Source: Octopus vulgaris (Eukaryota). From it: a stretch of 64,000 bases of DNA. The notes beneath the pieces were generated by a model, which saw only the letters and a list, made by a program, of their open reading frames with translations, was not told the origin of the DNA and did no database searches. A program made the translations under genes and the position numbers. The DNA is taken from NCBI GenBank assembly GCA_951406725.2, contig OX597831.1:77996001-78060000 (forward strand). Direction: 5' to 3'. Positions 1 to 62,470 of the stretch are shown here, piece by piece (the first letter of the stretch is position 1; every line of letters begins with the position of its first letter).

Positions 1-556
1 TATATATATATATATATATGCGTATATATATATTTGCGTATATATGTGTGTGTATATGTATACATATGGGTATATATATATATATATATGCTTGCGTTCA
101 GTGCTTCTTTTAATATTTCTGTTAAAATACGACAACATCGGTGTGTATGTGTTTTGTATCTTTATAGCAAGATTCCTCCATCAATAAAAGACTTACACCC
201 ACCCCACTCACCCCCAGGCACACACCATGTTTTTCGTATTAAGTATGAACGCAATGTTGTGAATATTTAGTACAAATATTTGGTGTGTATGTATTTGATT
301 ATGTATGCGTATATGTGTTTGTATGTATTTGTCGGTATATGTGTATGACCGCTAGTTGGCTTAAAACAGAATATATGAGCCATTAGAATTCCTCAGGTAT
401 TGCTGGAACAAATAAATTATTTAGCAACGCCAATTATGTTAGCAGCGGTGGGAGGAGTAATTTAATGTATTTAGCGTGGTTGGGTTTGTGTCCTTGTATT
501 TGCGTGTTTGCATGTATGTGTGTGTGCGTGTGTGTATGTGTGTGTGTGCGCATGTG

Positions 557-586
<30 letters not shown>

Positions 587-590
<4 letters not shown>

Positions 591-712
591 CATAAGGGAC
601 TAAAGCCATCTGAATATGGCTAGGGACAGGGCAGGGTGGTGGCAACAGTAACACCCCCACCACCCTGCCCTGTCCCTAGCCATATTCAGATGGCTTTAGT
701 CCCTTATGTTAT
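587..712. repeat. Perfect fold-back inverted repeat (56-bp arms, 14-nt loop); probable Penelope-like terminus
   Basis: 587-642 is the exact reverse complement of 657-712 and abuts (TA)n. Arm motif gccatctgaatatggcta resembles gccatctcaatatggcta at ~28313 in the hammerhead-bearing element. Confidence 0.9.
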
Positions 713-754
713 CGAGCAGTTACTGTCTACATCTCTTTTAGAGAATTATTATTG

Positions 755-803
<49 letters not shown>

Positions 804-874
804 ATAGGAAATTCCTAATAGCGATAATTATTAATGTTCGAGCACAAGTCCCATATGAAGTCAAGATTGCCTTA

Positions 875-956
<82 letters not shown>

Positions 957-1458
957 TATATATGTGTGTGTGTTTGTGTGTATATATGTGTATATATATA
1001 TATGTATGTGTATATATATGTATATATATATATGTATGTGTATATATGTATGTATATATATATATATGTCTATATCTATATGCATATATATATGTGTGTG
1101 TGTGAGACTGTATTTGTGTGTGTGTTAAATAAAATAAGACGAGAAATTTCTAGGAGATTTCTAAGGAGAAAGATTGTCATACAGCTGTTTCAGGGATATA
1201 AAGGATATCCCATCGTGTGAGATGATATGAGAAAATTATATAGAAGTTATTTCGGAAAGTGTGAGATGTTTTGGAAAGTGAGGGAAATATAAGAATAATA
1301 TGAATAAAAACAAAAATATGTTTGATTTTACAGTTGCAATTCTCGCAGGAGATTCTTCACTGATACTAATTTCGAACCGAAAGTCTAACTACGGTCCTTC
1401 CTTAACACTTACGTAACCCTACGTGTCATTTTGGCGCTTCTGGATACCAAAACCTATC

Positions 1459-1489
<31 letters not shown>

Positions 1490-1492
1490 TTA

Positions 1493-1689
1493 TTTATTAT
1501 TTAAAGCAGCAGAAATTCAACAAAACCTGTTACTCGGATTTTCACGTTTCCGTTTGTCACACAGGAACGTGAGACTCCGAGTAACAGGCTTTGTTGAATT
1601 TCTGCTGCTTTTAAATAAAGCATATTACTCTACCCCTGGTATTTGAGTACTCTTTTTTCCACCTTGTTTCGCATTTATGTGTTTACTCC

Positions 1690-1692
<3 letters not shown>
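1493..1692. mobile_element. Penelope-like remnant with inverted arms and degenerate hammerhead-like motif
   Basis: aaagcagcagaaattcaacaaaacctgttactcgga is inverted to tccgagtaacaggctttgttgaatttctgctgcttt. Minus strand reads cctgt-gTGACaA-acggaaacgt-GAAA-atccga-GTA-acagg. Flanked by (TA)n on both sides. Confidence 0.6.
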
Positions 1693-1753
<61 letters not shown>

Positions 1754-1788
1754 AATAGATATGTATATATACATATACAAACACACGC

Positions 1789-1820
<32 letters not shown>

Positions 1821-2613
1821 CATATACATATATATGTATATGTGAGTATTTATATATTTGTATATATGTATATATATATGTATATATATGTGTGTCTATA
1901 TATGTGTATATATACATGTATATATGTATATATACATACACACGCACAAGCATATATATATTTATATTTGTGTGTGTATAAGCAAAATTTATGCTTACAC
2001 ACACACATACAGACATACACACACACATATATACATCATTCCATTGATAATTACCTCCCCTTATGCATTATTCCCTTTACCCTCAGCCAGTCTCTCATGC
2101 ATACATGTATGTATGTATGTATGTATGCATGTATGTATGTATGTATGTATGTATGTATATATGCATGTATGTATGTATGCATGTATGTATGCATGCATGT
2201 ATGTATGTATGTATGTATGTATGTATGCGTATGTATCAATTCATGCATACCTGCATGACATGTATGTATGTATATGTATGTGTGTTTGTATGCATGTATG
2301 TGCGTATGCAATAAATGGTGGTTCCATATTTTTGGGTTCCTTGGAGGAATATTTATTTTGTCACTTCGGGCAACATTCTATGCTCAAATTAGCCGAATAA
2401 TGTTTCCTTATTTGTGTGGCAAGGGATCTGTCTCCACCATCGATGATCCGTCTTCAATTTTGGCTAACAATTTTCTTCGCTAACATGTGTGTGTGTATTT
2501 ATTCGCTTGGATTTCGTCTACAAAGCGTAACCACTTGAAGATGATAAGAATTTGGCTTACTTCGTTAACCTAACACTCCTATATTTGTCGTGCCAATATA
2601 ACTAACCGTTATA

Positions 2614-3179
2614 TTGGGTTGTCCGGAAAGTTCATGCCGATTTATAGTAGCTTACCGTTCGAATTATTTTAGAACATGGTTGAGTGCATAAAATAGGATT
2701 TGACAACATCTCCATTTAGAGCACAGTTTAAGCTATCTTTTCCTGGAAGAAGGTTCATGTTCCTATAACCTGTGTTAATTCTGTAACCCTTTAAAATGGA
2801 AGATAAGAAAGTTCATTTTCGGCACTTGATGCTTTGGGAACCAGACAAACATTGCTGCAGCTCGGCCGGGATGTGTTACCCAACCGTCCATACTCACCAG
2901 ATAATGCTCCTTCGGATTTCCACTTATTCAGGTCTCTGCAGAATAGTCTTAATGGTAAAAATTTCAATTCCTTGGATGGCGTAAAATGATACCTTGATGA
3001 GTTCTTTGCCATGAAACCACCTAAATTCTGGGAAGAGGGTATTTTCCTGTTAAAGGAAAGATGGAGACGCATTGTGCAACAAAATGGTTCATATTTGGTT
3101 GATTAAAAATGTAATGGCAAGTATTTATTGACCTTTTTCTTTCCTTTAAAAATTGGCACGAACTTTCCGGACAACCCAA
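2614..3179 (+). mobile_element. Internally deleted mariner (Tc1/mariner) DNA transposon
   Basis: TIRs ttgggttgtccggaaagttc / gaactttccggacaacccaa with TA on both flanks. N-terminal MEDKKVHFRHLMLWE is fused directly to the C-terminal PYSPDxAPSDFHLFRSLQN segment of a mariner transposase. Confidence 0.93.
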
Positions 3180-3389
3180 TATATTACTTTTTTCAGTTTT
3201 TCAATTGTGGCCATACGGAGGGCACAGCTTTGAAGTCTGTAATCGTCTTCAGTACTAATGTTTACGTGTGATAATTGATTTACCGTTCCCTTTTGCCGAA
3301 CTGTAAATTTACGATGGTAACGCAAATAAACTAACACTGCTTATCAAGCCGTATGTAAGAATAAAGACGTATTAAAACATACATACATA

Positions 3390-3480
3390 CATTTAAATAT
3401 ATATGAGCATGTCTAGATATGCAAATATATGCATGAGAATACATAAAGAAAACAAAACATACAAATTTGCACACATACAT
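3390..3480 (+). mobile_element. Short 3'-UTR fragment of the R4/Dong-like LINE seen at 43.3-45.1 kb
   Basis: catttaaatatatatgagcatgtctagatatgcaaatatatgcatgagaatacata matches 43760-43815; embedded in CATA repeats. Confidence 0.65.
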
Positions 3481-3560
3481 ACATACACCCATACATATAT
3501 ACATACACACATACACACACACACATACGTATATACATACATATATACACACATACATAC

Positions 3561-3830
3561 AGGTATGACTGTGCGATCAATGTGGTCAGAATCTTGCTAC
3601 CCCCAAAATATAACTTTGGGTTCATTCCCACTATGTGGGAACATGGGCTTCTTTTCTTTGGCCATTGGCCATCCAAAACTATATGAGTAGATCTGGTTGG
3701 TGGAAACTGAAAGAAGCCTGTCGATATATATATATATTTAAATTTATATTTATAGTGTGAAATGTGATTTAATCCTAAATCTAATTTTCCCTGTAAGTTT
3801 GGATTTACTCCCTAATATTATTATTATTAT

Positions 3831-3904
<74 letters not shown>

Positions 3905-4155
3905 AGTATGTATGTGTGTGTATGTATGAGAGCTTGTGTGTACGTGTCTTTGTGTTTGTCCCACTACTGGGCAATCCGTTTCGGTTTGTTCACGTCCCCA
4001 TAACTTAGCTTTTCGGCTCTAATAGACCGATAGAAAGATTACGGGGCTTAAAAATGGAAACTTTTGTGTTGATGCTTCGACTAAACCCTTTCAGTCGGTG
4101 ACCTAACATGGCCACAATTCCAATGACTGAAACAACGAAAAATAAAAAGATAAAT
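3561..4155 (+). mobile_element. SINE family A, diverged copy
   Basis: tRNA-like head, ggaaactgaaagaagcc, internal (TA)n, gtttgttcacgtcccc, tail aatgactgaaac. Confidence 0.75.
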
Positions 4156-4173
4156 GATATATACATACATACA

Positions 4174-4221
<48 letters not shown>

Positions 4222-4222
4222 C

Positions 4223-4295
<73 letters not shown>

Positions 4296-4750
4296 AGCTG
4301 GCAACTCTGAGGGGGATCCCGCGAGAATTGGGATGCGGGACGAGCGTGTCTGCATACGCGGACGACGTCACCGTCATAGTGTCTAGCCACGAGAACATCG
4401 GGCAGGTCGGCGAGACACTGAAAGACTACGAAGCGGTGACAGGAGCAAAAATCAACCGGGAAAAATCAGTGGGCTTGCGTCTCGGCACCTGAAGAAGCAA
4501 GCCCATGCCGTCCACCAGCGCCTCTGTCGTGGGACGCTGGACCGACGGTCCATCGAGTTGCTCGGGGTCTGGTTTGGTCCGAACCTCCAAATGGAGAAGA
4601 ACTGGAACGAGATAACGAGTAGGGTGGTCACTCTCGCCCGGCAATGGGCCGAGAGGAAACTGTCCCTAAAAGGTCGGGCGGAGGTGGCGATCTCGTACGT
4701 CGCGTCCGTCATCTCCGTCGTGCCTTGTCCCGACCCTACCATCACCAAAC
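4296..4750 (+). mobile_element. Tx1/L1-clade LINE fragment (RT YADD region), pseudogenised
   Basis: Translates VSAYADDVTVIVS...YEAVTGAKINREKSVGL and LGVWFG...WAERKLSLKGRAEV; in-frame stop at ~4490. Near-identical to 60976-61135. Starts immediately after (TATC)n. Confidence 0.85.
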
Positions 4751-4822
4751 ATAGGAGAAGGAAAGATCCAGAGAAGGGAAGACAGAGGGAAAAAAATCGC
4801 CAATTGTACACACGCGGTCAGA
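4747..4822 (-). mobile_element. Fragment of the Penelope-like family also at 25434-25640
   Basis: aggagaaggaaagatccagagaagggaagacagagg...cacacgcggtca is the diverged reverse complement of 25437-25510. Confidence 0.7.
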
Positions 4823-4825
4823 GGC

Positions 4826-4858
<33 letters not shown>

Positions 4859-5794
4859 GATATATATATAGATATATATACACATATGCATATATATACA
4901 TACTACTAATATAGGATGACATTTTTTTCTCTACAGAAAAAAATTCCATCAAGAAATGTGGCAGCATATTAAAATACATTTACGGTTAAATTTTAACCGT
5001 AAATATATATATACATATATATATACATACATATATATAAATAAATAAATAAATATATATATATATATATATGTCTGCCTGTCTGTATGTAAGTATATGT
5101 ATATGGAGGGCTGAAGTGCATTTTAAAAGTGCATGCGATAATCCACTCTTTAACAGATCATGGTTGCATATTTACCCAAGTTCAAGGCTCCATATACTGT
5201 CATCATTATCGTCAGGTCACGTGATTCTAATCGTTGTTAGGGACCGCAGAGAAGAACTGATTTTATGATGTGTTAATCCCATTCGTGATTACGTTACAGC
5301 TGCAGCAGTATTTGGGGTGGTGGTGGTGGTGGTGGTGGTGGTTTGGGCATGGCAGCGGGGTGCATTGACGGTTAGTTGTAGTTGTTTGTATGAACACCGC
5401 AAGTAATGTTCTGGACATAATTTATTTTGTTAGACTATGATTACATAAACCAAGAAATGCAACCGAACATATAACAACAACGATAATGATGATAAGGATG
5501 ATGATGATGATGATAATGATAATAACAACAACAAAAACAACGATAATAAACAAACTCATTATCTAAACCGAAAATAACTTTCGTAGCTACCTTCCCACAC
5601 TTTGGCAAGTATTTTTACTAACATTTGGCAGTCACACCAGCGTTTGGCAAGCACCATATTAGATGGAATAATTACTGAATACCCGCACGCATACACACAC
5701 ATGTATACACATACGCATACACACACACAAACACACACAATTGCCTCTGTATTTTTCTTTCTTTTCCTGTCTGACTGTCTGTCTCACTTTCTCT

Positions 5795-5825
<31 letters not shown>

Positions 5826-7058
5826 CCCCTCTCACTCTCTTTTGTATAGCGTCACACTTACACAGAGGCACATGCGGAGGGAACATGTACACGTTGGTTA
5901 GCGCTCATTCCACTTCTTAGAAAAAAAGCAATTAATAATTTACGTAATTATATTGTTTTCATCTTTTCCAAACATCCTTTCAGAGATGCCAAATCTCTCC
6001 TTCATCCTCTGGTTTCTATGAGCAACTTTGAACAATAAAATGAAAGTTTTAAAAGATGAGGTAAACTGGAGCCAATTGGAGAAAATTGAGGATTCGTCAA
6101 ATATAATATTTTCGTAACATATTTTCACAGGATTAAAGGGGAATCAGTTATAACTGAGTTGTGCGACGAACAAAATGTGCACTACGTAGCTCTCCTTTCT
6201 GATGTCACAACCAATAATAATAATAATAATAGTAGTAGTAATAATCATTTCTATTATAGTCACATGATCTAAATTTTGGTGGGAAATGGGGGTAGGTTAG
6301 TCGATTTCAATGACACTCCCTCCCATGCTCCGAAAGGATAAAAGATGAAACCGACCTTGGTTGAATTCGAACTCAAAACATAAAGCCGAACAAAATACTA
6401 CGAAGTATTTTGTCCGGTGTGCTAACGATTTTGCCAGATCATCGCTTTGATAATGGTAACTGTAATTATCACCTCTAGAAACAATAGTGTTTCGTTCATC
6501 TTTCTTAAACAACCATTATTCAAGGATCTTTTGAGCGAGATGGGTTACAGGACCTGCAGGAAATTTCACTGGCCCTTATCTGCGAAGTCATGCGCTGTTT
6601 ATCTTGATATGAGGTCACTGTATCATGCATATATTGTTGTGTTGCTTGTACTTAGTGTGCCCTTATCAGACGGGTAGTCGTGATGGGTATATTGGGTTTT
6701 GTGTATTTGGACCCCATTGTCACTTTGATGGTTTCCACTGCTCTCTCACACAGTAATAATAATAATCCTTTCTACTAAAGGCACAAAGCCTGAAATTTTG
6801 GGGGTGGGGACTTTCACTGGTACTTAATTTATCGACCTCGAAAGGTACCAATACAGGTTGTAAAGCGGTGATTGTTGTCACACACACACACACACATTTA
6901 AGTCGTAACATATGGATTTAACTAATCCGGTGGTACTCAAAAAAACTTCTTAATGTACAAAACAGAATATATCGTAATATATATAAAAGGGAAAAAGACA
7001 AGGAGTGTATAAAGTCATAAATGATCAAGAAATATTTTGATAAGCTTTTATATAACAA

Positions 7059-7450
7059 CGAGCAAAACGCCCACCGTCCATTGGACGGTGCTGGGTTGTC
7101 AAACATTTAAGCCAAATTTTCTCAAAACAACTTGTCCGACCGTCCCATAGGCCTCCCCTTTGAGAAACACTGATTTAACCTAAATTTGAGACACGAAACA
7201 GGCACGTGCATTTTTCTCGCGTACGCGTAGTATCGATCGCAACAGCTGATGTATTTGCGCGTACAAATGCACGTTCCCACGGTTTTATCGATCGCATTCT
7301 CACCTGGAATTGATTTTTGTAATTTTTTCAAGACTTATACACGCCCTGATACCGTCGGTATGTACATATCAAATTTGAGCGCAATCGGAGGATGCTCGAG
7401 ATCCTAGAAGACAGACACACAGACAGACAGAACGGATTTTATATAATAGA
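7059..7450 (-). mobile_element. Non-autonomous Helitron-like element
   Basis: Minus strand starts A|TCtattatatataaaa followed by (ctgt)n. Subterminal hairpin caccgtcca/tggacggtg at 7072-7090. Ends CTCG|T (CTAG-like); no TSD. Confidence 0.6.
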
Positions 7451-7872
7451 TATGAAAAATCTTAATATCACAACAATTGTTTCGTAACTCAAAAACATGT
7501 TGTCGAAAAGCAAACATGTTACCATACAGCCAAGCTTGGCCCCTAATAATGATGGTCCCTTATAAATAATTTTTCTTTCATTTCATACTGATTCTTATTC
7601 ATTTTTTAAACTGTACTCTATCATATTCTGTCTCGTTTCGCTTAATCTAGGGACCCAGTTGTAGCGCAGTTATTATCTATAATTAGTTGGTCAGATAACT
7701 GACAAGATTCTATATCCTTTGCTGTTTCTATTTACATGTTTTTCCTTACACATTAGCATGTGTCAGTCAAATCAAAATTAAAACATAGCTTATCTTTCTG
7801 TGTTAATTTGCTTCTGTTTCCCATTAAATATGCCTATGTGTATCTGTGTGTGTGTGTGTGTGTGTGTGTGTA

Positions 7873-7924
<52 letters not shown>

Positions 7925-8337
7925 CACATATACGAATGCGTGCATGTGATTAATATGTGTATGGTGGAGTGGAATCACAGCTGACTTCCTCGAGTGAATT
8001 CGTCGCTAAACCAATCAAAGATCAGACCTGCTCCAATCCTTTTGGTCTCCAATGGTATTTATTAATCGAAAATGGTGAGCTGGCAGAATGGGTAACATCT
8101 CGGCCAAACTGATGAGATATATTTCTTTCGGCTCTTAGCGTTCTAATTTCAAACTCTGCTGAGATGAATTTCGCCTTCGACCCTTACGGGGTGCATATGA
8201 TAAATTGCAAATTAAGTGTGCTGGTATATTAACAGTTAGTGAATCGTTGTACGCAACTTCATATTTCTCCTTTCTCTCTTTGATATTTCTCTCCCTCTCT
8301 CTTTTACTCTTAATTTCTCTTTATGTATATATGTATA

Positions 8338-8370
<33 letters not shown>

Positions 8371-8528
8371 GTATATATATAAATATGAATATATATATAT
8401 GTATATATATAAATATGAATATATATATATGTATATATATAAATATGAATATATATATAAATATGAATATATATATATATATATGTATATAAATATATAT
8501 TGATCTTTCTGAATCTTGTGTATTGCAG

Positions 8529-8629
8529 CAAGTTTAACGATACAGTATGGCCCACTTGGAATGGTACGGATACGAGGATCAGAAAATAAATACATGTGTT
8601 TTAATCAAAAAGGACGACTCATATTGCGA
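8529..8629 (+). CDS. FGF8/17/18: Internal coding exon of an FGF8/17/18-like fibroblast growth factor gene
   Basis: Acceptor tgtgtattgcag|CA and donor TTGCGA|gtaagt; 101 nt, phase 1 to phase 0. Translates [34 protein letters not shown], matching the FGF8-family middle exon pattern VR(I/V)RG..YxCxNxKG(K/R)LI. Absent from the ORF track (too short, no start codon). Confidence 0.88.
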
Positions 8630-8848
8630 GTAAGTATTTCAGCATGTTTCTGATAAAAAAATTACGATATATTTATTTATACACACACACACATACGTGC
8701 GCACGCGCGCACACACACACATGCACACACACACACACACACACACATATATAAGTTCAGCAAAATTTAGATTCAGATGAATATGGTACTTAAGTTAAAG
8801 GCACCAGAATTTTGTATGGTATTATCCATATAAATCAAATGGGGTGAT

Positions 8849-9098
8849 TATAATCAAAATAAGCAACAAGTATATCCAAAGTAGAGTAGTACAATTGTTT
8901 CATGCTACTGCATTATATTAAACCCTGTAAGTATTACATCAGTTTTAAAATGTCGAGCGATCTTCTATTCTATATGTGGCTGAAGATTGCGCGACATTTT
9001 AAAACTGATGTAATACTTACAGTGTGTAATAAATTGAAGTAGCATGAAACAATTGTACTATTCTACCTTGGATATCCTTATTGCTTATTTTGATTATA
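8849..9098. repeat. Imperfect fold-back inverted repeat (~117-bp arms) in the FGF intron
   Basis: tataatcaaaataagcaa...gtacaattgtttcatgctact...ctgtaagtattacatcagttttaaaatgtcg (8849-8965) is inverted at 8982-9098 and followed by (TA)n. Confidence 0.85.
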
Positions 9099-9279
9099 TA
9101 CATATATATATATGTATATATATATATATAGGTGTGTATATATGTATGTATGTATGTACGTATGTAACATTCGACAGCAAACACACCTTGAACACCTTTA
9201 CCTTGTGCTGCACATACTTTGATTCGAGTTCATTGTCGCTAGTGTCATCACAATGATGATTGTCATCATCAAAGCAGGC

Positions 9280-9448
9280 TCAGGTGTGGCTGTGTGGTAA
9301 GAACTAGCTTCCCGACCACATAGTTCAGAGTTCAGTCCCGCTGCTTGGCACACTGGACAAGTGTCTTTTACAATGGCCTCTGACCTTGTGCATAGATCTC
9401 ATAGACAGCAGCTGAAAGAAGCCCGTCGTGTGTATATACATATAACTT

Positions 9449-9492
<44 letters not shown>

Positions 9493-9640
9493 TATGCGTG
9501 TACGCGCTCGTGTGTGTGTCCGTTCTGGTGTCAGTATTTCTCACCCACCATCACTTCACAATCGGCGTGGGTTTGTTTACGTCCCCGTAAGTTAACGGTT
9601 CGGTACGAAAAGGCCGGTAAAATAAGCACCAGACTTTAAA
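9280..9640 (+). mobile_element. SINE family A copy (3' truncated) in the FGF intron
   Basis: caggtgtggctgtgtggtaagaactagcttccc...gttcagtcccgctgc...ctgaaagaagcccgtcg...gtttacgtccccgtaa. Confidence 0.8.
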
Positions 9641-9699
9641 AAACCTATTGGTTCCCTTGTTCCGCGCAAACTATTTTCTCCCTGTCGTTAGAACAAGAT

Positions 9700-10310
9700 G
9701 CTGTCCTGTACTTCTTCCGGTTCTTTACGTACAGAGTTCAAATAACGCCGAGGCAAAATTTATTTTCATCCTTCCGAAGTCGGCATAAAAAAAGTACCAG
9801 TCACGTAATACGGTCGTTGTAATGATGTACTCGACTTGCAGCCATTACTCAAGTCGGAAACCATCTAAGGTGGCAAGATGGCAGGACCTTTTGCCCACTG
9901 GAAAGGAAAGGAGCTAAATCACATGACGTTTTCAGTTCAAATTGCACTGAGGTTGACTTCGGCTTTCATCGTTTCAAGGTCGATAAGATAAAGTACCAGT
10001 GAAATACTGGGACCTATGTAATCGACTTGTGCCCTCCTCTCAAATTTACCGAAATTTTTCCAACATTAGAAAGAATTAATATCATATGAATTATTACTTA
10101 TATTACAAAGTTTGATAGAGATTAGTAAAAAATACTGTATTCGTTTTGTTTCTTGACTTTCTGAACTGAAAGTCGATGTCGACTTTGCCTTTCATCTTTT
10201 CCGGTTCGATAAAATAAATACCAGCTGAACACTGGGATTCAATGTACTCGACTATCCCCACTCCCCCAGAATTTCAGGCCCTGTGCCTACAGTAGGAAGG
10301 AATATTATTA
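9700..10310 (+). mobile_element. Three tandem diverged SINE family B copies
   Basis: Repeated gagttcaaat...gactttgcctttcatc...gtcgataaaataagtaccag cores at ~9735, ~9935 and ~10175. Confidence 0.7.
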
Positions 10311-10353
10311 TCATTATTATAATTGTTGTTGTTGTTGTTATTATTATTATTAT

Positions 10354-10606
10354 TCAGTAGTTTTATTTTTATAGCGTGCTTTCACTTCACTACCGAGCGC
10401 AGCTCTGTGTGCCTTGGGTATGTGCTGTGATTTGTTGCGATGCTCTGATGGTTATTGTATGGAAAGTGTTCTGCGTAGGATGTGTGCAGTGCCTAGTAGT
10501 GCAATTTTCTGTATGTTATATGTGTTTGTAAGTCCTGGTGTTTTTGTTATGTATTTGTCTGAATATTTTTTTATCATGCCTAATGCACCTACTATGATAG
10601 GAATTG

Positions 10607-10608
<2 letters not shown>
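10354..10608 (-). mobile_element. 3' fragment of an R4/Dong-like (restriction-like endonuclease) LINE within (TAA)n
   Basis: Minus strand translates TIPIIVGALGMIKKYSDKYITKTPGLTNTYNIQKIALLGTAHILRRTLSIQ*, a typical R4/Dong C-terminus. (TTA)n tracts on both flanks. Confidence 0.8.
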
Positions 10609-10660
<52 letters not shown>

Positions 10661-10662
10661 TG

Positions 10663-10709
<47 letters not shown>

Positions 10710-10738
10710 TGTTTTTACATATTTCTGTCTTCTTGCAG

Positions 10739-10990
10739 AGAAATCCCAAAATATACAGATGTATATTCGTCGCAAGAATGATGAACGGAACATATATATT
10801 CCAGTTAGCATCATTTCAAAGGTGGGCCGTTGGTTTCCGCAAAAATGGCCGTCCTTTACGAGGGCACAAATACAGCACACAGAGGCGAAAATGTTTCGAG
10901 TTCTATCTTCGAGTCAGAGACAGCCCTAAAGGAAATTTTTCCCCAATCAAAGACCCCATTTTCCTATCGGCATTGAAAACAAATCGATAA
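10739..10990 (+). CDS. FGF8/17/18: Terminal coding exon of the same FGF8/17/18-like gene
   Basis: Acceptor ttctgtcttcttgcag|AGA, phase 0, in frame with exon 8529-8629. Translates RNPKIYRCIFVARMMNGTYIFQLASFQRWAVGFRKNGRPLRGHKYSTQRRKCFEFYLR...KTNR*, carrying the FGF CxF motif, WxxGFxKxGRP and an FGF8-like KCFxF. AATAAA hexamers at 11042 and 11052. Confidence 0.88.
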   Translation, partial: RNPKIYRCIFVARMMNGTYIFQLASFQRWAVGFRKNGRPLRGHKYSTQRRKCFEFYLRVRDSPKGNFSPIKDPIFLSALKTNR

Positions 10991-12183
10991 AGTGACAGAC
11001 AATGAATTAAAAAATACATAATGACTTGTGGCCGATAGGAAAATAAAAATTAATAAACAAAATTATATAAAAATTATATACATATACGTATAATGTAAAT
11101 TATATGAATATATGTATATATAAATATATATATATGTATGTATGTATAGTATAATATAATATTAAAAAAACTAACTAAATGAAAGAAGGAAACAGACGGG
11201 GAATAATACAAATGAAGAATGAACAGAGGAGAAACGAACTTACCAGGAAAAACAAAACAGCTACGATACTCTCAAGTAATTATATTTTAATAATTATCAA
11301 ATTACAAAGTGATCATAGTTAATAACATACGATAATGATGACGGTGATGATGGTATACTCTTCATTATGATGATGTTAATGATAATAATGGTGATGACCA
11401 CGGCGTTGTTGATAAGCAGGACGACGGCGACCATATTGATGATGAAGGTGGCGGCGGCGGTGTTGTTGGTGTTGGTGGTGATAATGGTGATCGTAATGGT
11501 CAACATGATGATGGTGATGGTGATGGTGATGGTGATGATGATGATGTTGGGGAAGATAATGATATTGTTTATATGTAGAATAACTAAATTTATTCAAAGG
11601 CAACCGTGCAGATGTGTTGAAACTAAACCTAATTTTCCGACGAAGATTAGGACAGGAATCGCAATTATACAACGTCTTACGACACACCACTGTGATGACG
11701 TCATTCCGATGACGAATAAAAAATGGAGATGGTACATCCATCGGACATTGCTTCCAAGAAATCATGATACCAACATCATAAATCGAACATTCTACAGGAA
11801 ACATGCAGACAAATTCACTTACAATTTGGCTTTGAATATATTTTTTTGCAACAGATATTACCAAATAAAATGTCAAAACTAAAACTATTTCATTAATAAA
11901 TATATTCATGTATATATATGGATATATATGGATATATGAGTCTTTATTAGTGTAACATGTATGTGTGTAGATATTATAAATACATATATTTACACATATG
12001 AATATGCAACCATATCAATATATATGTATACATTCACACATAAAATACATTCAGTTACATATATATATATACATATATATATATGTATATATATATATAC
12101 ATGCATACATACACACACACATATATAGGATGTCATCTATTATACATTTTATTTTTAAAGTTGTACAATTTCTGAAACGTATG

Positions 12184-17058: not shown

Positions 17059-17063
17059 TATTA

Positions 17064-17836
17064 TTGGGTTTCTGGAAAGTTCGTCTCAATTTTAAAGGAA
17101 AGAAAAAGGTCAATAAATACTTGCCGTTACATTTTTAATCAACCAAATACGAACCATTTTGTTGCACAATGCGTTTCCATCTTTCCTTTAACTTGAAAAT
17201 ACCCTCTTCCCAGAATTGAGGTGGTTTCTTTGCAAAGAATTTATCAAGGTATCTTTTTACGTCATCCAAGGAATTGAAATTTTTACCATTAAGACTATTC
17301 TGCAGAGACCTGAATAAGTGGAAATCCGAAAGAGCAATATCTGGTAAATATGCAGGATGGAGTAACACATCCCAGCCGAGCTGCAGCAATTTTTGTCTGG
17401 TTCCCAAAGCATCAAATACCGAAAATGAACTTTCTTATCTTCCATTTTAAAGGGTTACAGCAGTGCTTTTCAAACTTTTTGCTGGAGCGGAACACCAAGG
17501 AAATATTCCACTGGCTCGAGGAACCCCTGTGCAATAATTTAATAATTTTATGCACACAAATCTGCACAGGAGAATTAAAAATTACCGCCGATTTTAGCAG
17601 TTTTGTAACTTCTTGCGGAACCCCTGGACTGTACTGGCGGAACCCTGGTTGAAAACCACTGGGTTACAGAATTAACACAGGTTATAGGAACATAAACCTT
17701 CTTCCATGAAAAGATAACTTAAACTGTGCTCTAAATGGAGGTGTAGTAAAATCCTATTTTATGGACTCAACCATGTTCTAAAATAAGTCGAACGGTAAGC
17801 TACTACAAATCGGCACGAACTTTCCGGACAACCCAA
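17064..17836 (-). mobile_element. Second copy of the deleted mariner, interrupted by a hAT MITE
   Basis: Same TIRs and the same deletion junction (MLWE|PDK) as 2614-3179. ORF 17135-17407 encodes QKLLQLGWDVLLHPAYLPDIALSDFHLFRSLQNSL... Confidence 0.93.
17461..17661. mobile_element. hAT-superfamily MITE nested in mariner
   Basis: TIRs cagtgcttttcaaac / ggttgaaaaccactg; perfect 8-bp TSD ggttacag (17453-17460 and 17662-17669). The site is single and empty in the first mariner copy. Confidence 0.92.
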
Positions 17837-20373: not shown

Positions 20374-21019
20374 TTGTAACCCTTGAATGCTTTCTTGTTT
20401 ATAAGGATCCTCGAGCACGCATGCGTGTGTGTGTTTTGAACAATAACGCTTCTTTGTTCATTAATGTTTCAATATTTTCTCGGTTTCATTATTTGCATCC
20501 AATGTGGAAGTGATCTGATGCTGAGGCGTTGTGCAGGAAACAACGAAGGATAATGGAAATAATTCTATAACGAGGAACGTCATCGTTTTCGACCTTAAGC
20601 AGTTTAGCTATTAATATCTGCTAATTTTCATAGTGTTTTTCTTTTCTTCCATAACACTAGGATGATGTTACAGCCTGGACATGGTGGATCAATTTGTACA
20701 TATTTTTGCGAGAAAACTTGATGCATTATCGTTAGGGGAGACCACCTCAACAGAGAGAGGCCAACTTTAAGAGACACTATATGTCACATTTTTTGTGAAC
20801 TTTGGGGAAAGTCCTCAAAAATCAATGACTGCTCTGTGTCTATAAACAATGATGTTATGCCTCTTGTGATAAAAACCAGATGCACCTCTGTAACACCGTT
20901 CGAACATACATTCACATATTGAGAAGAACCTGTAGATTCTCAGGGCCATACATGTCATGTTATAGGAAGTAGCAAGAGAACTTAATGTATTACAAAATAT
21001 TATTATTTAATAATATAAA

Positions 21020-47682: not shown

Positions 47683-49544
47683 ATTTATTTTATTTTATTT
47701 TACTTAGTTTCAGCTCACAAGCTGTGGTCATGCTAGGGCACCGCCATTTGGTGTTGCTACATGATTTTACTTCACGAATGCTTTTTAGCAATTGCCATTT
47801 GGTGCATGAGAGAGTTCGATGCAGCTACCCTCATCTGCCGTGAAGTTGGTTCATCTGGGACACCTGACAAGAAGAGATCCAGTTTCATTTTAAAGACATC
47901 TGCATCCACCCCATGCAGGTCTCTCAGGTTCTTCGGGAGGATATTGAAGAGTTGTGGGCCTCGGAAGCCCAGGCTATCACAGTATCTTCTCCTACATCTT
48001 GATGGCAAATTTGGAGTCCTTGGCACTATGCAGTGGTGCCTAGTTCTGGCATTTGTGTAACCCTCGATGCCAAAGTTTGGGACAAGTCTTTCTAGGATCT
48101 TCCAGATGTATATTATGGCATATCTTTCTCGCCTGCACTCTAAGGAATAGAGTCTCAATCTCTTGAGTCTTTCCCAATAGCTTATATGCTGCACAGAGGC
48201 TATCTTCTTCGTGTAGCTTCGTTGGATCGCCTCAAGTTCTGTGATTAACTTGACACTGGATGGTGACCATAGCTGAGAGCAATAGACAAAGTGGCTTAGG
48301 ACAAGTGTCCTCCAGAGGACCATCATGGTTTCCTGGTCTCTTGTTCTAAAGGTTCTAAGAATCCATCCGGTCAGCCGCCTACATTTCATTGCCATTTAGC
48401 AACATGAACATGAAAGGTTGCATCATCACTCATGTAAATACCCATGTCTCGCACTGATTGTGCCTCTGGGATTGCAATCCCTCCAGGTCCAGTGTATTTA
48501 TTGGGTATTGCATTTAGTTTTGCATGCTGATAGTATAAAGCTTGAAACTTTTCAGCATTGAACTGCATGCTATTCTTTTCAGCCCACTTGTATATTTTGT
48601 CCAGCTCACATTGCAGGTGCATAGTGTCTTCATCATCTGCATAACTTGTTATCGTGGCTCTCTGCGTGGCTGAAGGCATGTCTGAGAGGGCCATTATGAA
48701 CAGTAGTGGTCCCAGAACAGTGCCTTGCAGAACACCGCTCACTATTGGCTACTACCACCTGACTTCTATCCTTCTATCCTACATTTGAGTGGTTGAGCAG
48801 TTGTTTCAGCACCCAGTCATAGTGTTGTAGGAGCTGAGTTAAGCAGCTTCTTCCTGGTCGGAAACCATGTTGGGTGTCAGGCAGCAAGTCATTTTCTTCA
48901 AGGAAGGTGATTAGTTTCCTTCTGATTATTCGTTCCATGACCTTGCTGATGTGTGAGGTCAGAGAGATAGGTCTGTAGTTCTTGGCCTCCGCTCTGCTAC
49001 CTCCTTCATGAATGGGGCATATTTTACCTTCCTTCAGTTTTCTTGGAAGTTTGCCAGTTGCAAGGAAGCTCTGAAAGAGGAACTGCAGTGGTCTTGCTAG
49101 GACTCTCTTACATACTTGTAGAAGGATTGCTGGGAATCCATCTGGGCCAGTAGCTGAGTTTGTTTTTATTTCATCAACAGCCTTTATTACATCGTCTTCC
49201 TTTATATTGATGTAATCAATCATCGCTGCCTCTGATTTTATATCTGCAGTGGTAAAGAAGTCAGTTGCATTGCTGACTTGAAAATGCCCTAGGGGTGGAG
49301 TGAAAATACTCTTGAATTGCTCATTTAGTATTTCACTTACCCTCATTGGATTTCCTGTGAGTGTGCCATCCTTTTCAAGGAGTGGCCCTATCCTACAGTA
49401 CACCGTAGCTGTTTCTTTGGCATACCTGTAGAAAGCTCTGGGGTTATATTTTATGTTGTCTATAGCCCAGGCTTCTTTGTCTGCTCTTTCTTTTTCATGG
49501 GAGAGTGGCAGACATTTTTCAATTTCCAACAGTTTTATTTTCAA
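47683..49544 (-). mobile_element. 5'-truncated, pseudogenised CR1/L2-group LINE (reverse transcriptase)
   Basis: Three broken ORFs with GPDG, NYRPISLTS..KVMERII, QHGFRPGRSCLTQLL, GVLQGTVLGPLLF, SYADD and LEAIQR motifs. The DFxKAFD segment is deleted near 48775; frameshifts present. 3' tail ends in (aaaat)n. Confidence 0.9.
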
Positions 49545-49552
49545 TATATATA

Positions 49553-49588
<36 letters not shown>

Positions 49589-49676
49589 TGTATGTATGTA
49601 TGTATGTATGTATGTATGTATGTATTTGTATAAATGAATAAATATATACACATATATATCATGTGTATACACACAC

Positions 49677-60972: not shown

Positions 60973-62470
60973 AAATGGAACGAGATAACGAGTAGGGTGG
61001 TCACTATCGCCCGGCAATGGGCCGAGAGGAAACTGTCCCTAAAAAGTCGAGCGGAGGTGGCGAACGCGTACATCGCATCCGTCATCTGCTACCGCCTGAC
61101 CGTCGTGCCTTGTCTCGACCCTACCATCACCAAACTAGAACGCATTCTCTTTCATTTCTTGTGGAAAGGATTCGTCCCGATGGTCAGGACTGTGCATGCC
61201 GTGGTTGATGATGCGCAGACACGAGCTGAGACTACGACACCTCAGGCTCTACGTAGACGACGGTGAACAGGTGTGGTCACCGTTTGTGAGGTACGTCTTC
61301 CCGCAGCTCATCTCCATGACCAAACTGCAGTCGTGGATCAAAAGAGGCCGAAGAAGGGCGAATGGCATCGCGAGTGTCGCGTTGCTCTCAAGCAACTCTG
61401 CCGTCCCGGGTCGACCTTGAGTGACTCCAACACAACCCAAGCATTCAATAGGGGATTAGTGGAGGGGAGGTACGACGACGAGCTCGGAACGAACCTGGAC
61501 GTCGACGAGGAATACCTGACCCGCCTGTTCGGGACGACTTTCGGGCCAGGGCCCATGGACAATTTCCAGAGATCCCTGGCCTGACAGTGCTACCGAGAAG
61601 CGCTACCCGTTCGGGATAAGCTCTACAGACACGGCTCGAGAAACACGGGTCGACCTGCCCGAGATGCGGTCAGAGCGACGAAACCGTTCTGCACGCACTC
61701 GTGCAGTGTCCAACAATCTCCGACCTGTGGGCTTATGTCGAACAACTGCTGTCTCGTGTGGGACGAGTCGGTTTATCAGCTGAGTCTATCGTCAATATTG
61801 TCACGCCTCCTTCCTTCAAACGGGAAGGAAGAGCTATTTTCATCATCCTTGTGGCTATGGCGAAAGAAGGTATCTGGCGGACGCGTCTGAAAGGATTGGA
61901 GACAAACACTTTCCTCTCTGGTCAATCTCTCATCAACTTCTTCAAGTATCACTTGAAACGGAAAGTGAGAGTAGAGAGGCAAGTTTTGTCCAGCGAATGT
62001 TTTAAAAAAAGATGGGAGAATGTAGCAAGGATGGCATGTATGAATAACGAAGCCACCTTGAGCATAATCCTATGAACCCAGAAATTGAAAACAGAGGGTT
62101 ACCCACTTGCAAACAAATATGGTAACATATAACAATATTGACCGAGGTTACCATGGTCTTTTTCCTAGGCTTTTCTTCCCACGGATAAACCTTATCTGCT
62201 CCCCCTTTACACCGTACATCATGACACTGTGATACACGATCCCTATTGATCGTTTTTTCCCTCTTCCCCTTTTTTCCTCTTTTTTCTTCATTTTTCTTTT
62301 TTTCTTTTGTATCTTTTCCTTTTTTATCTTTTTTTCTTTTTTCCCTTTTACGATTCCTTTTGATCGAAAACCTATGCCACTTTCATTTTTTCTTCATTCC
62401 CCAAAAGAAAAGCTCTACCTTGTAATTTGTCCCATCTGTGTGCAGCCCTGTGTGGCCAGTAAAGAAACTG
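60973..62470 (+). mobile_element. 5'-truncated Tx1/L1-clade LINE inserted in (TATC)n
   Basis: WAERKLSLKSRAEVANAYIASVICY..FHFLWKG; zinc knuckle CPRCGQSDETVLHALVQCP (~61657-61713); stop at 62075; T-rich 3' UTR ending cagtaaagaaactg. (TATC)n on both sides; frameshifted. Confidence 0.88.

What the first reader, a model, noticed from the sequence alone, without database searches (positions are those of the whole stretch)
8529..10990. Hidden two-exon FGF8/17/18-like growth factor gene in a sea of repeats
Seen: two exons with canonical splice sites join in frame across a 2109-nt intron to give ...[66 protein letters not shown]...KCFEF. Established: FGF genes have a ~100-nt phase-1/phase-0 middle exon at this position. 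Inference: this is a divergent invertebrate FGF8-family ligand (CIFVA replaces the usual CxFxE). Its first exon probably lies upstream of the window, and I recognised no other host exon in the 53 kb downstream.
Basis: partly seen in the sequence, partly recalled or inferred. Interest (0 to 1): 0.7.

Follow-up and report, generated by a model that had tools for sequence, protein, structure and literature searches.

The report
Octopus FGF8/17/18 growth factor gene
This is a real, spliced and already annotated octopus gene of the FGF8/17/18 growth-factor family, whose product is likely secreted and likely signals through the octopus FGF receptor; it is ordinary apart from an optional exon and the loss of a residue that is thought to help related proteins bind the receptor.

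Summary
Observation confirmed. Exons 8529-8629 and 10739-10990 are joined across a 2109-nt GT..AG intron in contigs of 4 of 4 public runs. They are the last two of six coding exons of a 188-kb gene; the other four lie 1.7-177 kb before the window. The gene is not hidden: the model is 219/229 identical to Octopus bimaculoides XP_014774625 (FGF18-like), and an O. vulgaris model exists with a different C-terminus that the runs do not support. PDB, fold and tree place it in FGF8/17/18, in a protostome branch with an extra cysteine pair; AU tests do not exclude other placements. Side results: a 57-nt cassette exon is included in 4 and skipped in 2 of 4 runs, at the position of mammalian exon 1C; the CxFxE Glu is Ala only in Octopus and Argonauta, and the Octopus receptor has His for a usually conserved Gln. 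The scan's notes held no earlier finding on this gene among 8 shown. Verdict: known gene, low interest.

The parts
1..8528 (+). 3' part of the 10,266-nt intron behind exon 1D. The four upstream coding exons lie outside the window, on G000:C18 (+): '1A' 77819181-77819233 (53 coding nt, ends in phase 2; start codon uncertain); '1B' 77962069-77962129 (61 nt, phase 2 to 0, likely signal peptide); '1C' 77982755-77982811 (57-nt cassette, phase 0 to 0); '1D' 77994097-77994262 (166 nt, phase 0 to 1; NYS sequon, first strands, first cysteine of the extra pair). The window starts at 77996001.
   Evidence: 1D joined to window 8529 in 4 of 4 runs, 1C to 1D in 4 of 4, 1B directly to 1D in 2 of 4; the 1A-1B join rests on annotated proteins of three species and in-phase GT/AG, not tested on runs
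8529..8629 (+). Middle core exon (101 nt, phase 1 to 0), 3 nt shorter than the 104-nt exons of the two other FGF genes found in this genome
8630..10738 (+). 2109-nt GT..AG intron with microsatellites and dispersed repeats
10739..10990 (+). Last coding exon (83 codons and TAA): CIFVA in place of CxFxE, basic stretch (8 Lys/Arg in 26 residues, likely the heparan-binding face), second cysteine of the extra pair
10991..11066 (+). Start of the 3' UTR; contigs run on to 11036-11066, where a microsatellite begins; AATAAA at 11042 and 11052; true end not determined
20661..20721 (+). Alternative last exon used only by the O. vulgaris model CAI9736390.1 through a donor at 10822; it would cut off the end of the trefoil; likely a prediction error
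   Evidence: contigs of the 4 runs cross 10822 without a break and no loose end there is listed, but 37 loose-end rows were not shown

Best explanation
The two exons are the end of a six-exon, spliced Octopus gene of the FGF8/17/18 family, whose protein is predicted to fold as an FGF beta-trefoil, is likely secreted through an N-terminal signal peptide, and likely acts as a short-range ligand that binds heparan sulfate and the octopus FGF receptor. Shown: gene structure, intact frame, splicing, two N-terminal isoforms, family placement, and an FGFR gene in the same genome. Predicted: the fold and an N-terminal helix. Inferred from the family: cleavage after about residue 33, glycosylation at NYS, a disulfide between the two core cysteines and a second one between the extra pair, receptor dimerisation and MAPK signalling in development. 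It is the only FGF8/17/18 gene among the three FGF genes that the genome searches found.
For: Spliced joints 1D>8529 and 8629>10739 in 4 of 4 runs. Model 219/229 identical to O. bimaculoides FGF18-like X1, 155/155 to the O. vulgaris model over the shared part; Argonauta orthologue 77% identical to the O. bimaculoides one. Pfam FGF 1e-17. PDB: FGF8b 59.8 and FGF18 59.2 bits, then an engineered consensus 43, FGF1/2/7 forms 37 or less. AlphaFold model of the O. bimaculoides short isoform, pLDDT 86.2, best Foldseek hits FGF8b-FGFR2c and FGF18 (rmsd 1.6 A). Tree of 51 rows: FGF8/17/18 side 100/98, branch with all 9 named protostome rows 95/84, and 94/97 with the two cysteine columns removed; anchors named. 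Asn60-Tyr61-Ser62 aligns with Asn-Phe32-Thr of FGF8b (Phe32: PMC6013765, passages). Exon sizes modulo 3 match mouse Fgf8 1C (87 nt) and 1D (181 nt) (PMC11358489 section 13). FGFR gene at G000:C22.
Against: AU tests do not reject trees that hold the cephalopod rows with the non-FGF8 rows (p 0.16 and 0.23) or with the two other FGF genes of this genome (p 0.06); the cephalopod stem is long (1.09). Tree rows were picked as hits of this protein, and the outgroup has no named FGF9/16/20. The fold model was built on an FGF8-rich alignment, so its best hit is partly circular. The CxFxE Glu, kept in 133 of 150 other rows, is Ala; a 1995 paper title calls Glu-96 of FGF2 essential for receptor binding (seen only as a reference in PMC12305320; that Glu-96 is this Glu is recalled). 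The unnamed sister proteins have Ala at the Phe32 position, so that residue is not kept across the clade. RNA status of the runs is a guess by the tool; tissue and stage are unknown.
Confidence: 0.88

Rival explanations
1. An FGF8/17/18 orthologue that has become a weak or non-signalling ligand (a decoy or antagonist) in octopods through loss of the CxFxE Glu.
For: Ala in Octopus and Argonauta only; Glu in 133 of 150 other rows, including the unnamed sister protein, and in both other FGF genes of this genome. Two one-residue gaps in the middle exon and one in the last exon against FGF8.
Against: 14 further rows also lack the Glu. It is the only FGF8/17/18 gene found in the genome. Signal peptide, sequon, helix and basic face are kept. 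The Octopus receptor differs at the loop recalled to face this residue.
Confidence: 0.07
2. A fast-evolving FGF of another subfamily, drawn to FGF8/17/18 by long-branch attraction.
For: AU tests do not reject outside placements; identity to non-cephalopod FGFs is mostly 25-40%.
Against: It shares the extra cysteine pair with 27 of 27 rows of the protostome branch and none of the other 24 rows, among them damselfly thisbe, Lingula FGF8 and mollusc FGF18-like; PDB margin of 22 bits over FGF1/2/7 forms; the two other FGF genes match FGF9/FGF7/FGF1 better.
Confidence: 0.04
3. A pseudogene or chance frame in repeat-rich DNA; the joined contigs come from a processed copy.
For: Each exon alone is under the Pfam cut-off and the family search of the genome missed this locus; runs are only guessed to be RNA.
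Against: Open frame over six exons, 96% identity to O. bimaculoides, two splice forms, and no intronless copy among the 6 matches of the genome search.
Confidence: 0.01

Closest known systems
Octopus bimaculoides fibroblast growth factor 18-like, XP_014774625-7 (isoforms X1-X3)
   Same: Orthologue: 219/229 residues identical; same cassette isoforms; same CIFVA.
   Different: Ten substitutions, three of them at the start of the cassette exon. Automatic annotation; no study of it turned up in searches.
Octopus vulgaris model CAI9736390.1 ('FGF 8b-like isoform X3')
   Same: 155/155 residues identical over the shared part; skips the cassette.
   Different: Leaves the last exon at 10822 for an exon at 20661 and loses the end of the trefoil; contigs of 4 runs read through.
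Vertebrate FGF8b, FGF17, FGF18 (PDB 2fdb, 4cjm)
   Same: Best sequence and fold matches; core cysteine pair; sequon and aromatic at the Phe32 position; a frame-keeping optional exon between the signal-peptide exon and exon 1D.
   Different: 26-29% identity; extra cysteine pair; Ala for the CxFxE Glu; middle exon 101 nt (107 recalled for vertebrates); no a/b-type second acceptor seen in exon 1D in the 4 runs; 188-kb gene; cassette probably gained independently, as the gastropod, chiton, brachiopod, amphioxus and hemichordate proteins aligned have none.
Protostome FGF8/17/18 (Lingula FGF8, Pomacea and Liolophura FGF18-like, Patella, insect thisbe, springtail and nematode FGF8/17-like)
   Same: Same branch (95/84) and the extra cysteine pair; several vary in the N-terminus just before the hydrophobic stretch. 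Lophophorates have one FGF8/17/18 linked to mesoderm development (PMC8180254, passages).
   Different: Long cephalopod branch; the named ones keep Glu in CxFxE; no cassette in the sequences seen.

Membership tests
FGF family (PF00167) | Profile match over the curated cut-off | tested here: met
   64.8 bits against 24 for the 96%-identical orthologue; single window exons 18.7 and 20.0
FGF family (PF00167) | Beta-trefoil core | tested here: met
   Predicted model pLDDT 86.2; rmsd 1.6 A to FGF18, TM 0.91 on the target; a prediction, made on the O. bimaculoides orthologue
FGF family (PF00167) | Two conserved core introns around a phase-1/0 exon of about 100 nt | tested here: met
   101 nt, phases 1 and 0; 104 nt in the two paralogues; core introns described in PMC11733497 (passages)
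FGF family (PF00167) | Typical CxFxE motif (common, not strictly defining) | tested here: inconclusive
   Cys and Phe kept, Glu replaced by Ala; Glu in 130 of 145 other rows with the Cys, so 14 further rows besides Argonauta also lack it
FGF8/17/18 subfamily | Groups with FGF8, 17, 18 and invertebrate FGF8/17/18 in a tree | tested here: met
   100/98 in two trees; AU tests do not reject alternatives, so strong branch support but low power
FGF8/17/18 subfamily | FGF8/FGF18 are the best solved relatives | tested here: met
FGF8/17/18 subfamily | Cleavable N-terminal signal peptide | tested here: inconclusive
   Hydrophobic stretch 18-33 and predicted helix; no predictor or experiment; start codon uncertain
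FGF8/17/18 subfamily | N-terminal helix with an aromatic at the Phe32 position and a sequon | tested here: met
   Tyr61 in NYS aligns with Phe32; helix 42-48 of the short-isoform model; Ala in the unnamed sister proteins
FGF8/17/18 subfamily | N-terminal region split over exons 1A-1D | tested here: met
   Four exons, phases 2, 0, 0, 1; mouse 1C 87 nt and 1D 181 nt fit 0, 0, 1; the mouse 1A/1B phase of 2 is recalled
FGF8/17/18 subfamily | Binds heparan sulfate and activates FGFR | not testable with these tools
   Receptor gene present; activity needs an assay
FGF8/17/18 subfamily | Conserved neighbours (NPM, FBXW4) | tested here: inconclusive
   Nucleoplasmin search rang nowhere, controls included; fgf8-fbxw linkage is listed as deuterostome-specific (PMC4729200, passage); FBXW4 not searched

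The most novel reading that the evidence does not exclude
Octopods rewired the FGF8-FGFR interface and its tuning: the ligand gave up the CxFxE Glu while the receptor swapped the facing Gln of the D3 loop for His, on a ligand stiffened by a protostome-only disulfide, and coleoids gained on their own an optional exon in the same intron as mammalian Fgf8 exon 1C, giving two isoforms of different signalling strength.
Probability: 0.15. Interest if true: 0.45.

Novelty: already known. Interest (0 to 1): 0.2.

Why it matters
As a gene it is expected: the spiralians studied have one FGF8/17/18, and this one is annotated. Its use is practical. It gives the contig-supported structure of the octopus FGF8/17/18 gene and corrects the C-terminus of the O. 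vulgaris model, for anyone who studies FGF signalling in cephalopod arm, eye or brain development or regeneration, where a 2017 review says the role of FGFs in regeneration is yet to be assessed (PMC5430041, passage). If the paired ligand and receptor changes or the convergent cassette exon proved functional, they would be a small, clean case of ligand-receptor co-evolution and of parallel splice control.

Tried and rejected
Complex prediction of the O. bimaculoides ligand with its receptor D2-D3: no verdict (runs 0.33, 0.00, 0.01; mark 0.34; alignments not used); not used either way. No RNA holder was listed on record; runs were laid as guessed RNA. Nucleoplasmin synteny search uninformative. 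The Pfam search of the genome missed this locus and its fifth hit, C26, has a stop and repeat context and was dropped. The upstream exon was sought in the window first: 0 matches. AU tests had too little power. Six rows covering under 85% of the core were left out of the first tree; the later trees used 51 and 26 rows picked by hand from the remaining 145 plus the two paralogues. RNA editing as a way back to Glu was rejected: the codon is GCA and no run differs there. Three weak Pfam hits under cut-off (DUF4663, TMEM218_N, DUF4298) were taken as chance. Papers not held: the octopus genome paper and its supplement, the Fgf8 isoform review (31, 38), the FGF8b-FGFR2c structure paper (49) and six other structural papers (81, 85-89); these may bear on the ligand count, on the history of exon 1C, on the extra cysteines and on the Glu-Gln contact. 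Searches gave no text on that contact. PMC7661307 and PMC6581508 mention FGF only in references; PMC9982125 and PMC13576445 were not relevant.

Full report
Observation. Each hits Pfam FGF under the cut-off, at adjacent profile positions. Contigs of 4 of 4 runs from 4 studies skip exactly 8630-10738. The tool only guesses that these runs are RNA, but the same runs also join exons 10-32 kb apart, and the genome search found no intronless copy among its 6 matches. About 18% of the window is tandem repeat.

The whole gene. The window is G000:C18:77996001-78060000. The last exon found a named orthologue, Octopus bimaculoides XP_014774625 FGF18-like, an Argonauta protein, two unnamed clusters and an O. 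vulgaris model. With that orthologue, four further coding exons were mapped upstream on C18: 77819181-77819233, 77962069-77962129, 77982755-77982811 and 77994097-77994262 (53, 61, 57 and 166 nt), all GT/AG, phases 2, 0, 0, 1, introns of 142.8, 20.6, 11.3 and 10.3 kb, 188 kb in all. The 229-aa model is 219/229 identical to the O. bimaculoides protein, and the short form 155/155 to the O. vulgaris model over their shared part, so the genome is an Octopus, O. vulgaris or very close. The O. vulgaris model leaves the last exon at 10822 for an exon at 20661; the four runs read through, though 37 loose-end rows were not shown. The join of the first two exons was not tested on runs, and the start codon is uncertain.

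Splicing. Exon 1D is preceded by the 57-nt exon in 4 of 4 runs and directly by the signal-peptide exon in 2 of 4. O. bimaculoides has both forms annotated, and unnamed sister proteins have a 17-aa optional insert of different sequence at the same place. Mouse Fgf8 has a skippable 87-nt exon 1C before a 181-nt exon 1D (PMC11358489, passages and section 13). The gastropod, chiton, brachiopod, amphioxus and hemichordate proteins aligned have no such insert, so independent gain is the likelier reading (inference). Contig depth cannot give isoform ratios.

Family. The orthologue scores 64.8 bits on Pfam FGF. Best solved relatives are FGF8b and FGF18 by sequence and by fold (model pLDDT 86.2, rmsd 1.6 A to FGF18). 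Of 151 hits among 1.84 billion representatives, 150 were listed; 18 of them and two sister proteins were looked up for names. A 51-row tree puts the cephalopod rows inside FGF8/17/18 (100/98) and in a branch with all 9 named protostome rows (95/84); without the two diagnostic cysteine columns that branch holds at 94/97. Against this, AU tests do not reject outside placements (p 0.16, 0.23, 0.06), rows were chosen by similarity to the query, and no named FGF9/16/20 was in the outgroup. Two other FGF genes, on C16 and C20, fall outside FGF8/17/18. One FGF8/17/18 per species is what three lophophorates have (PMC8180254, passages); Lottia has two FGFs of uncertain placement (PMC3420111, passages). 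Three FGF ligands in octopus is recalled from the genome paper, which was not held.

How it likely works. Shown: a hydrophobic stretch at 18-33, an NYS sequon whose Tyr aligns with Phe32 of FGF8b, four cysteines, and a basic stretch near the end of the core. Predicted: trefoil and N-terminal helix. Inferred: secretion, heparan-sulfate binding and activation of the FGFR encoded on C22. Phe32 raises FGF8b affinity about tenfold (PMC6013765, passages); the cassette ends two residues before the sequon, so it may tune affinity or spread (speculation). The sister proteins have Ala at that position, which weakens the case for a conserved role.

The odd residue. A 1995 title names Glu-96 of FGF2 as essential for receptor binding (reference list of PMC12305320 only); that this is the CxFxE Glu, and that it contacts the Gln of the receptor's D3 loop, is recalled and could not be checked. 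Both Octopus receptors have His at that Gln; 14 of 22 aligned receptors have Gln, but His, Arg, Leu and Glu occur elsewhere too, and the two other octopus ligands keep Glu. This is one coincidence on one branch, a lead and not evidence of co-evolution.

Novelty and verdict. The gene is annotated in two Octopus species. Searches of the held library listed no study of it; subscription papers and supplements were not seen. The scan's own notes showed nothing on it (8 of 15 shown). The finding is real and correctly read, but ordinary: already known, interest 0.2. The residual novelty lies in the corrected model, the cassette exon, the protostome cysteine pair and the ligand-receptor pair of changes (probability 0.15 that these amount to a functional rewiring).

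Noticed in passing
L001/L004, G000:C16:8437765-8447100: Second FGF gene, 104-nt middle exon, long Thr-rich and basic C-terminal tail; best natural PDB matches FGF9 and FGF7; outside FGF8/17/18.
   Followed up: partly
L002/L003, G000:C20:18243089-18244452: Third FGF gene, 104-nt middle exon; best PDB matches an FGF7/FGF1 chimera and FGF1; outside FGF8/17/18.
   Followed up: partly
L012-L019, G000:C22 about 25.07-25.14 Mb: FGFR gene; D3 loop reads SDLHP where 14 of 22 aligned receptors have Gln for His; His also in a scorpion and one unnamed receptor; three unnamed receptors 76-77% identical keep Gln.
   Followed up: partly
proteins P0009-P0156: An extra cysteine pair marks protostome FGF8/17/18: 63 rows have both, 70 neither, 3 one, of 136 covering both sites (rows are related, so not independent). 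Likely a second disulfide; not searched for in print on its own.
   Followed up: partly
proteins P0003, P0004, P0157-P0162: Unnamed sister proteins (probably squid or cuttlefish, inferred from the tree) have a 17-aa optional insert at the same place, unlike the octopus one in sequence, and several different N-termini.
   Followed up: partly
window 2610-3183: Decayed mariner-like element with 37-bp inverted ends (3 mismatches); a 92%-identical piece lies at 17062-17460. The mariner label is from recalled motifs.
   Followed up: partly
window 48389-49658 (-), 61620-62072 (+), 4296-4800: Non-LTR retrotransposon remnants: RVT_1 and zf-RVT hits; the piece at 4.3 kb had no Pfam hit and is labelled by eye.
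   Followed up: no
window 16.3, 18.5, 23.3, 27.1, 31.5, 32.1, 33.3, 36.1 kb: A dispersed repeat of 400-530 bp in at least eight copies, 67-92% alike, both orientations.
   Followed up: no
window 10897: C>T difference in one run, third codon position, silent.
   Followed up: no
protein P0035: A sheep database model appears to fuse an upstream nucleoplasmin-like gene to FGF8, probably an annotation artefact (label by eye).
   Followed up: no
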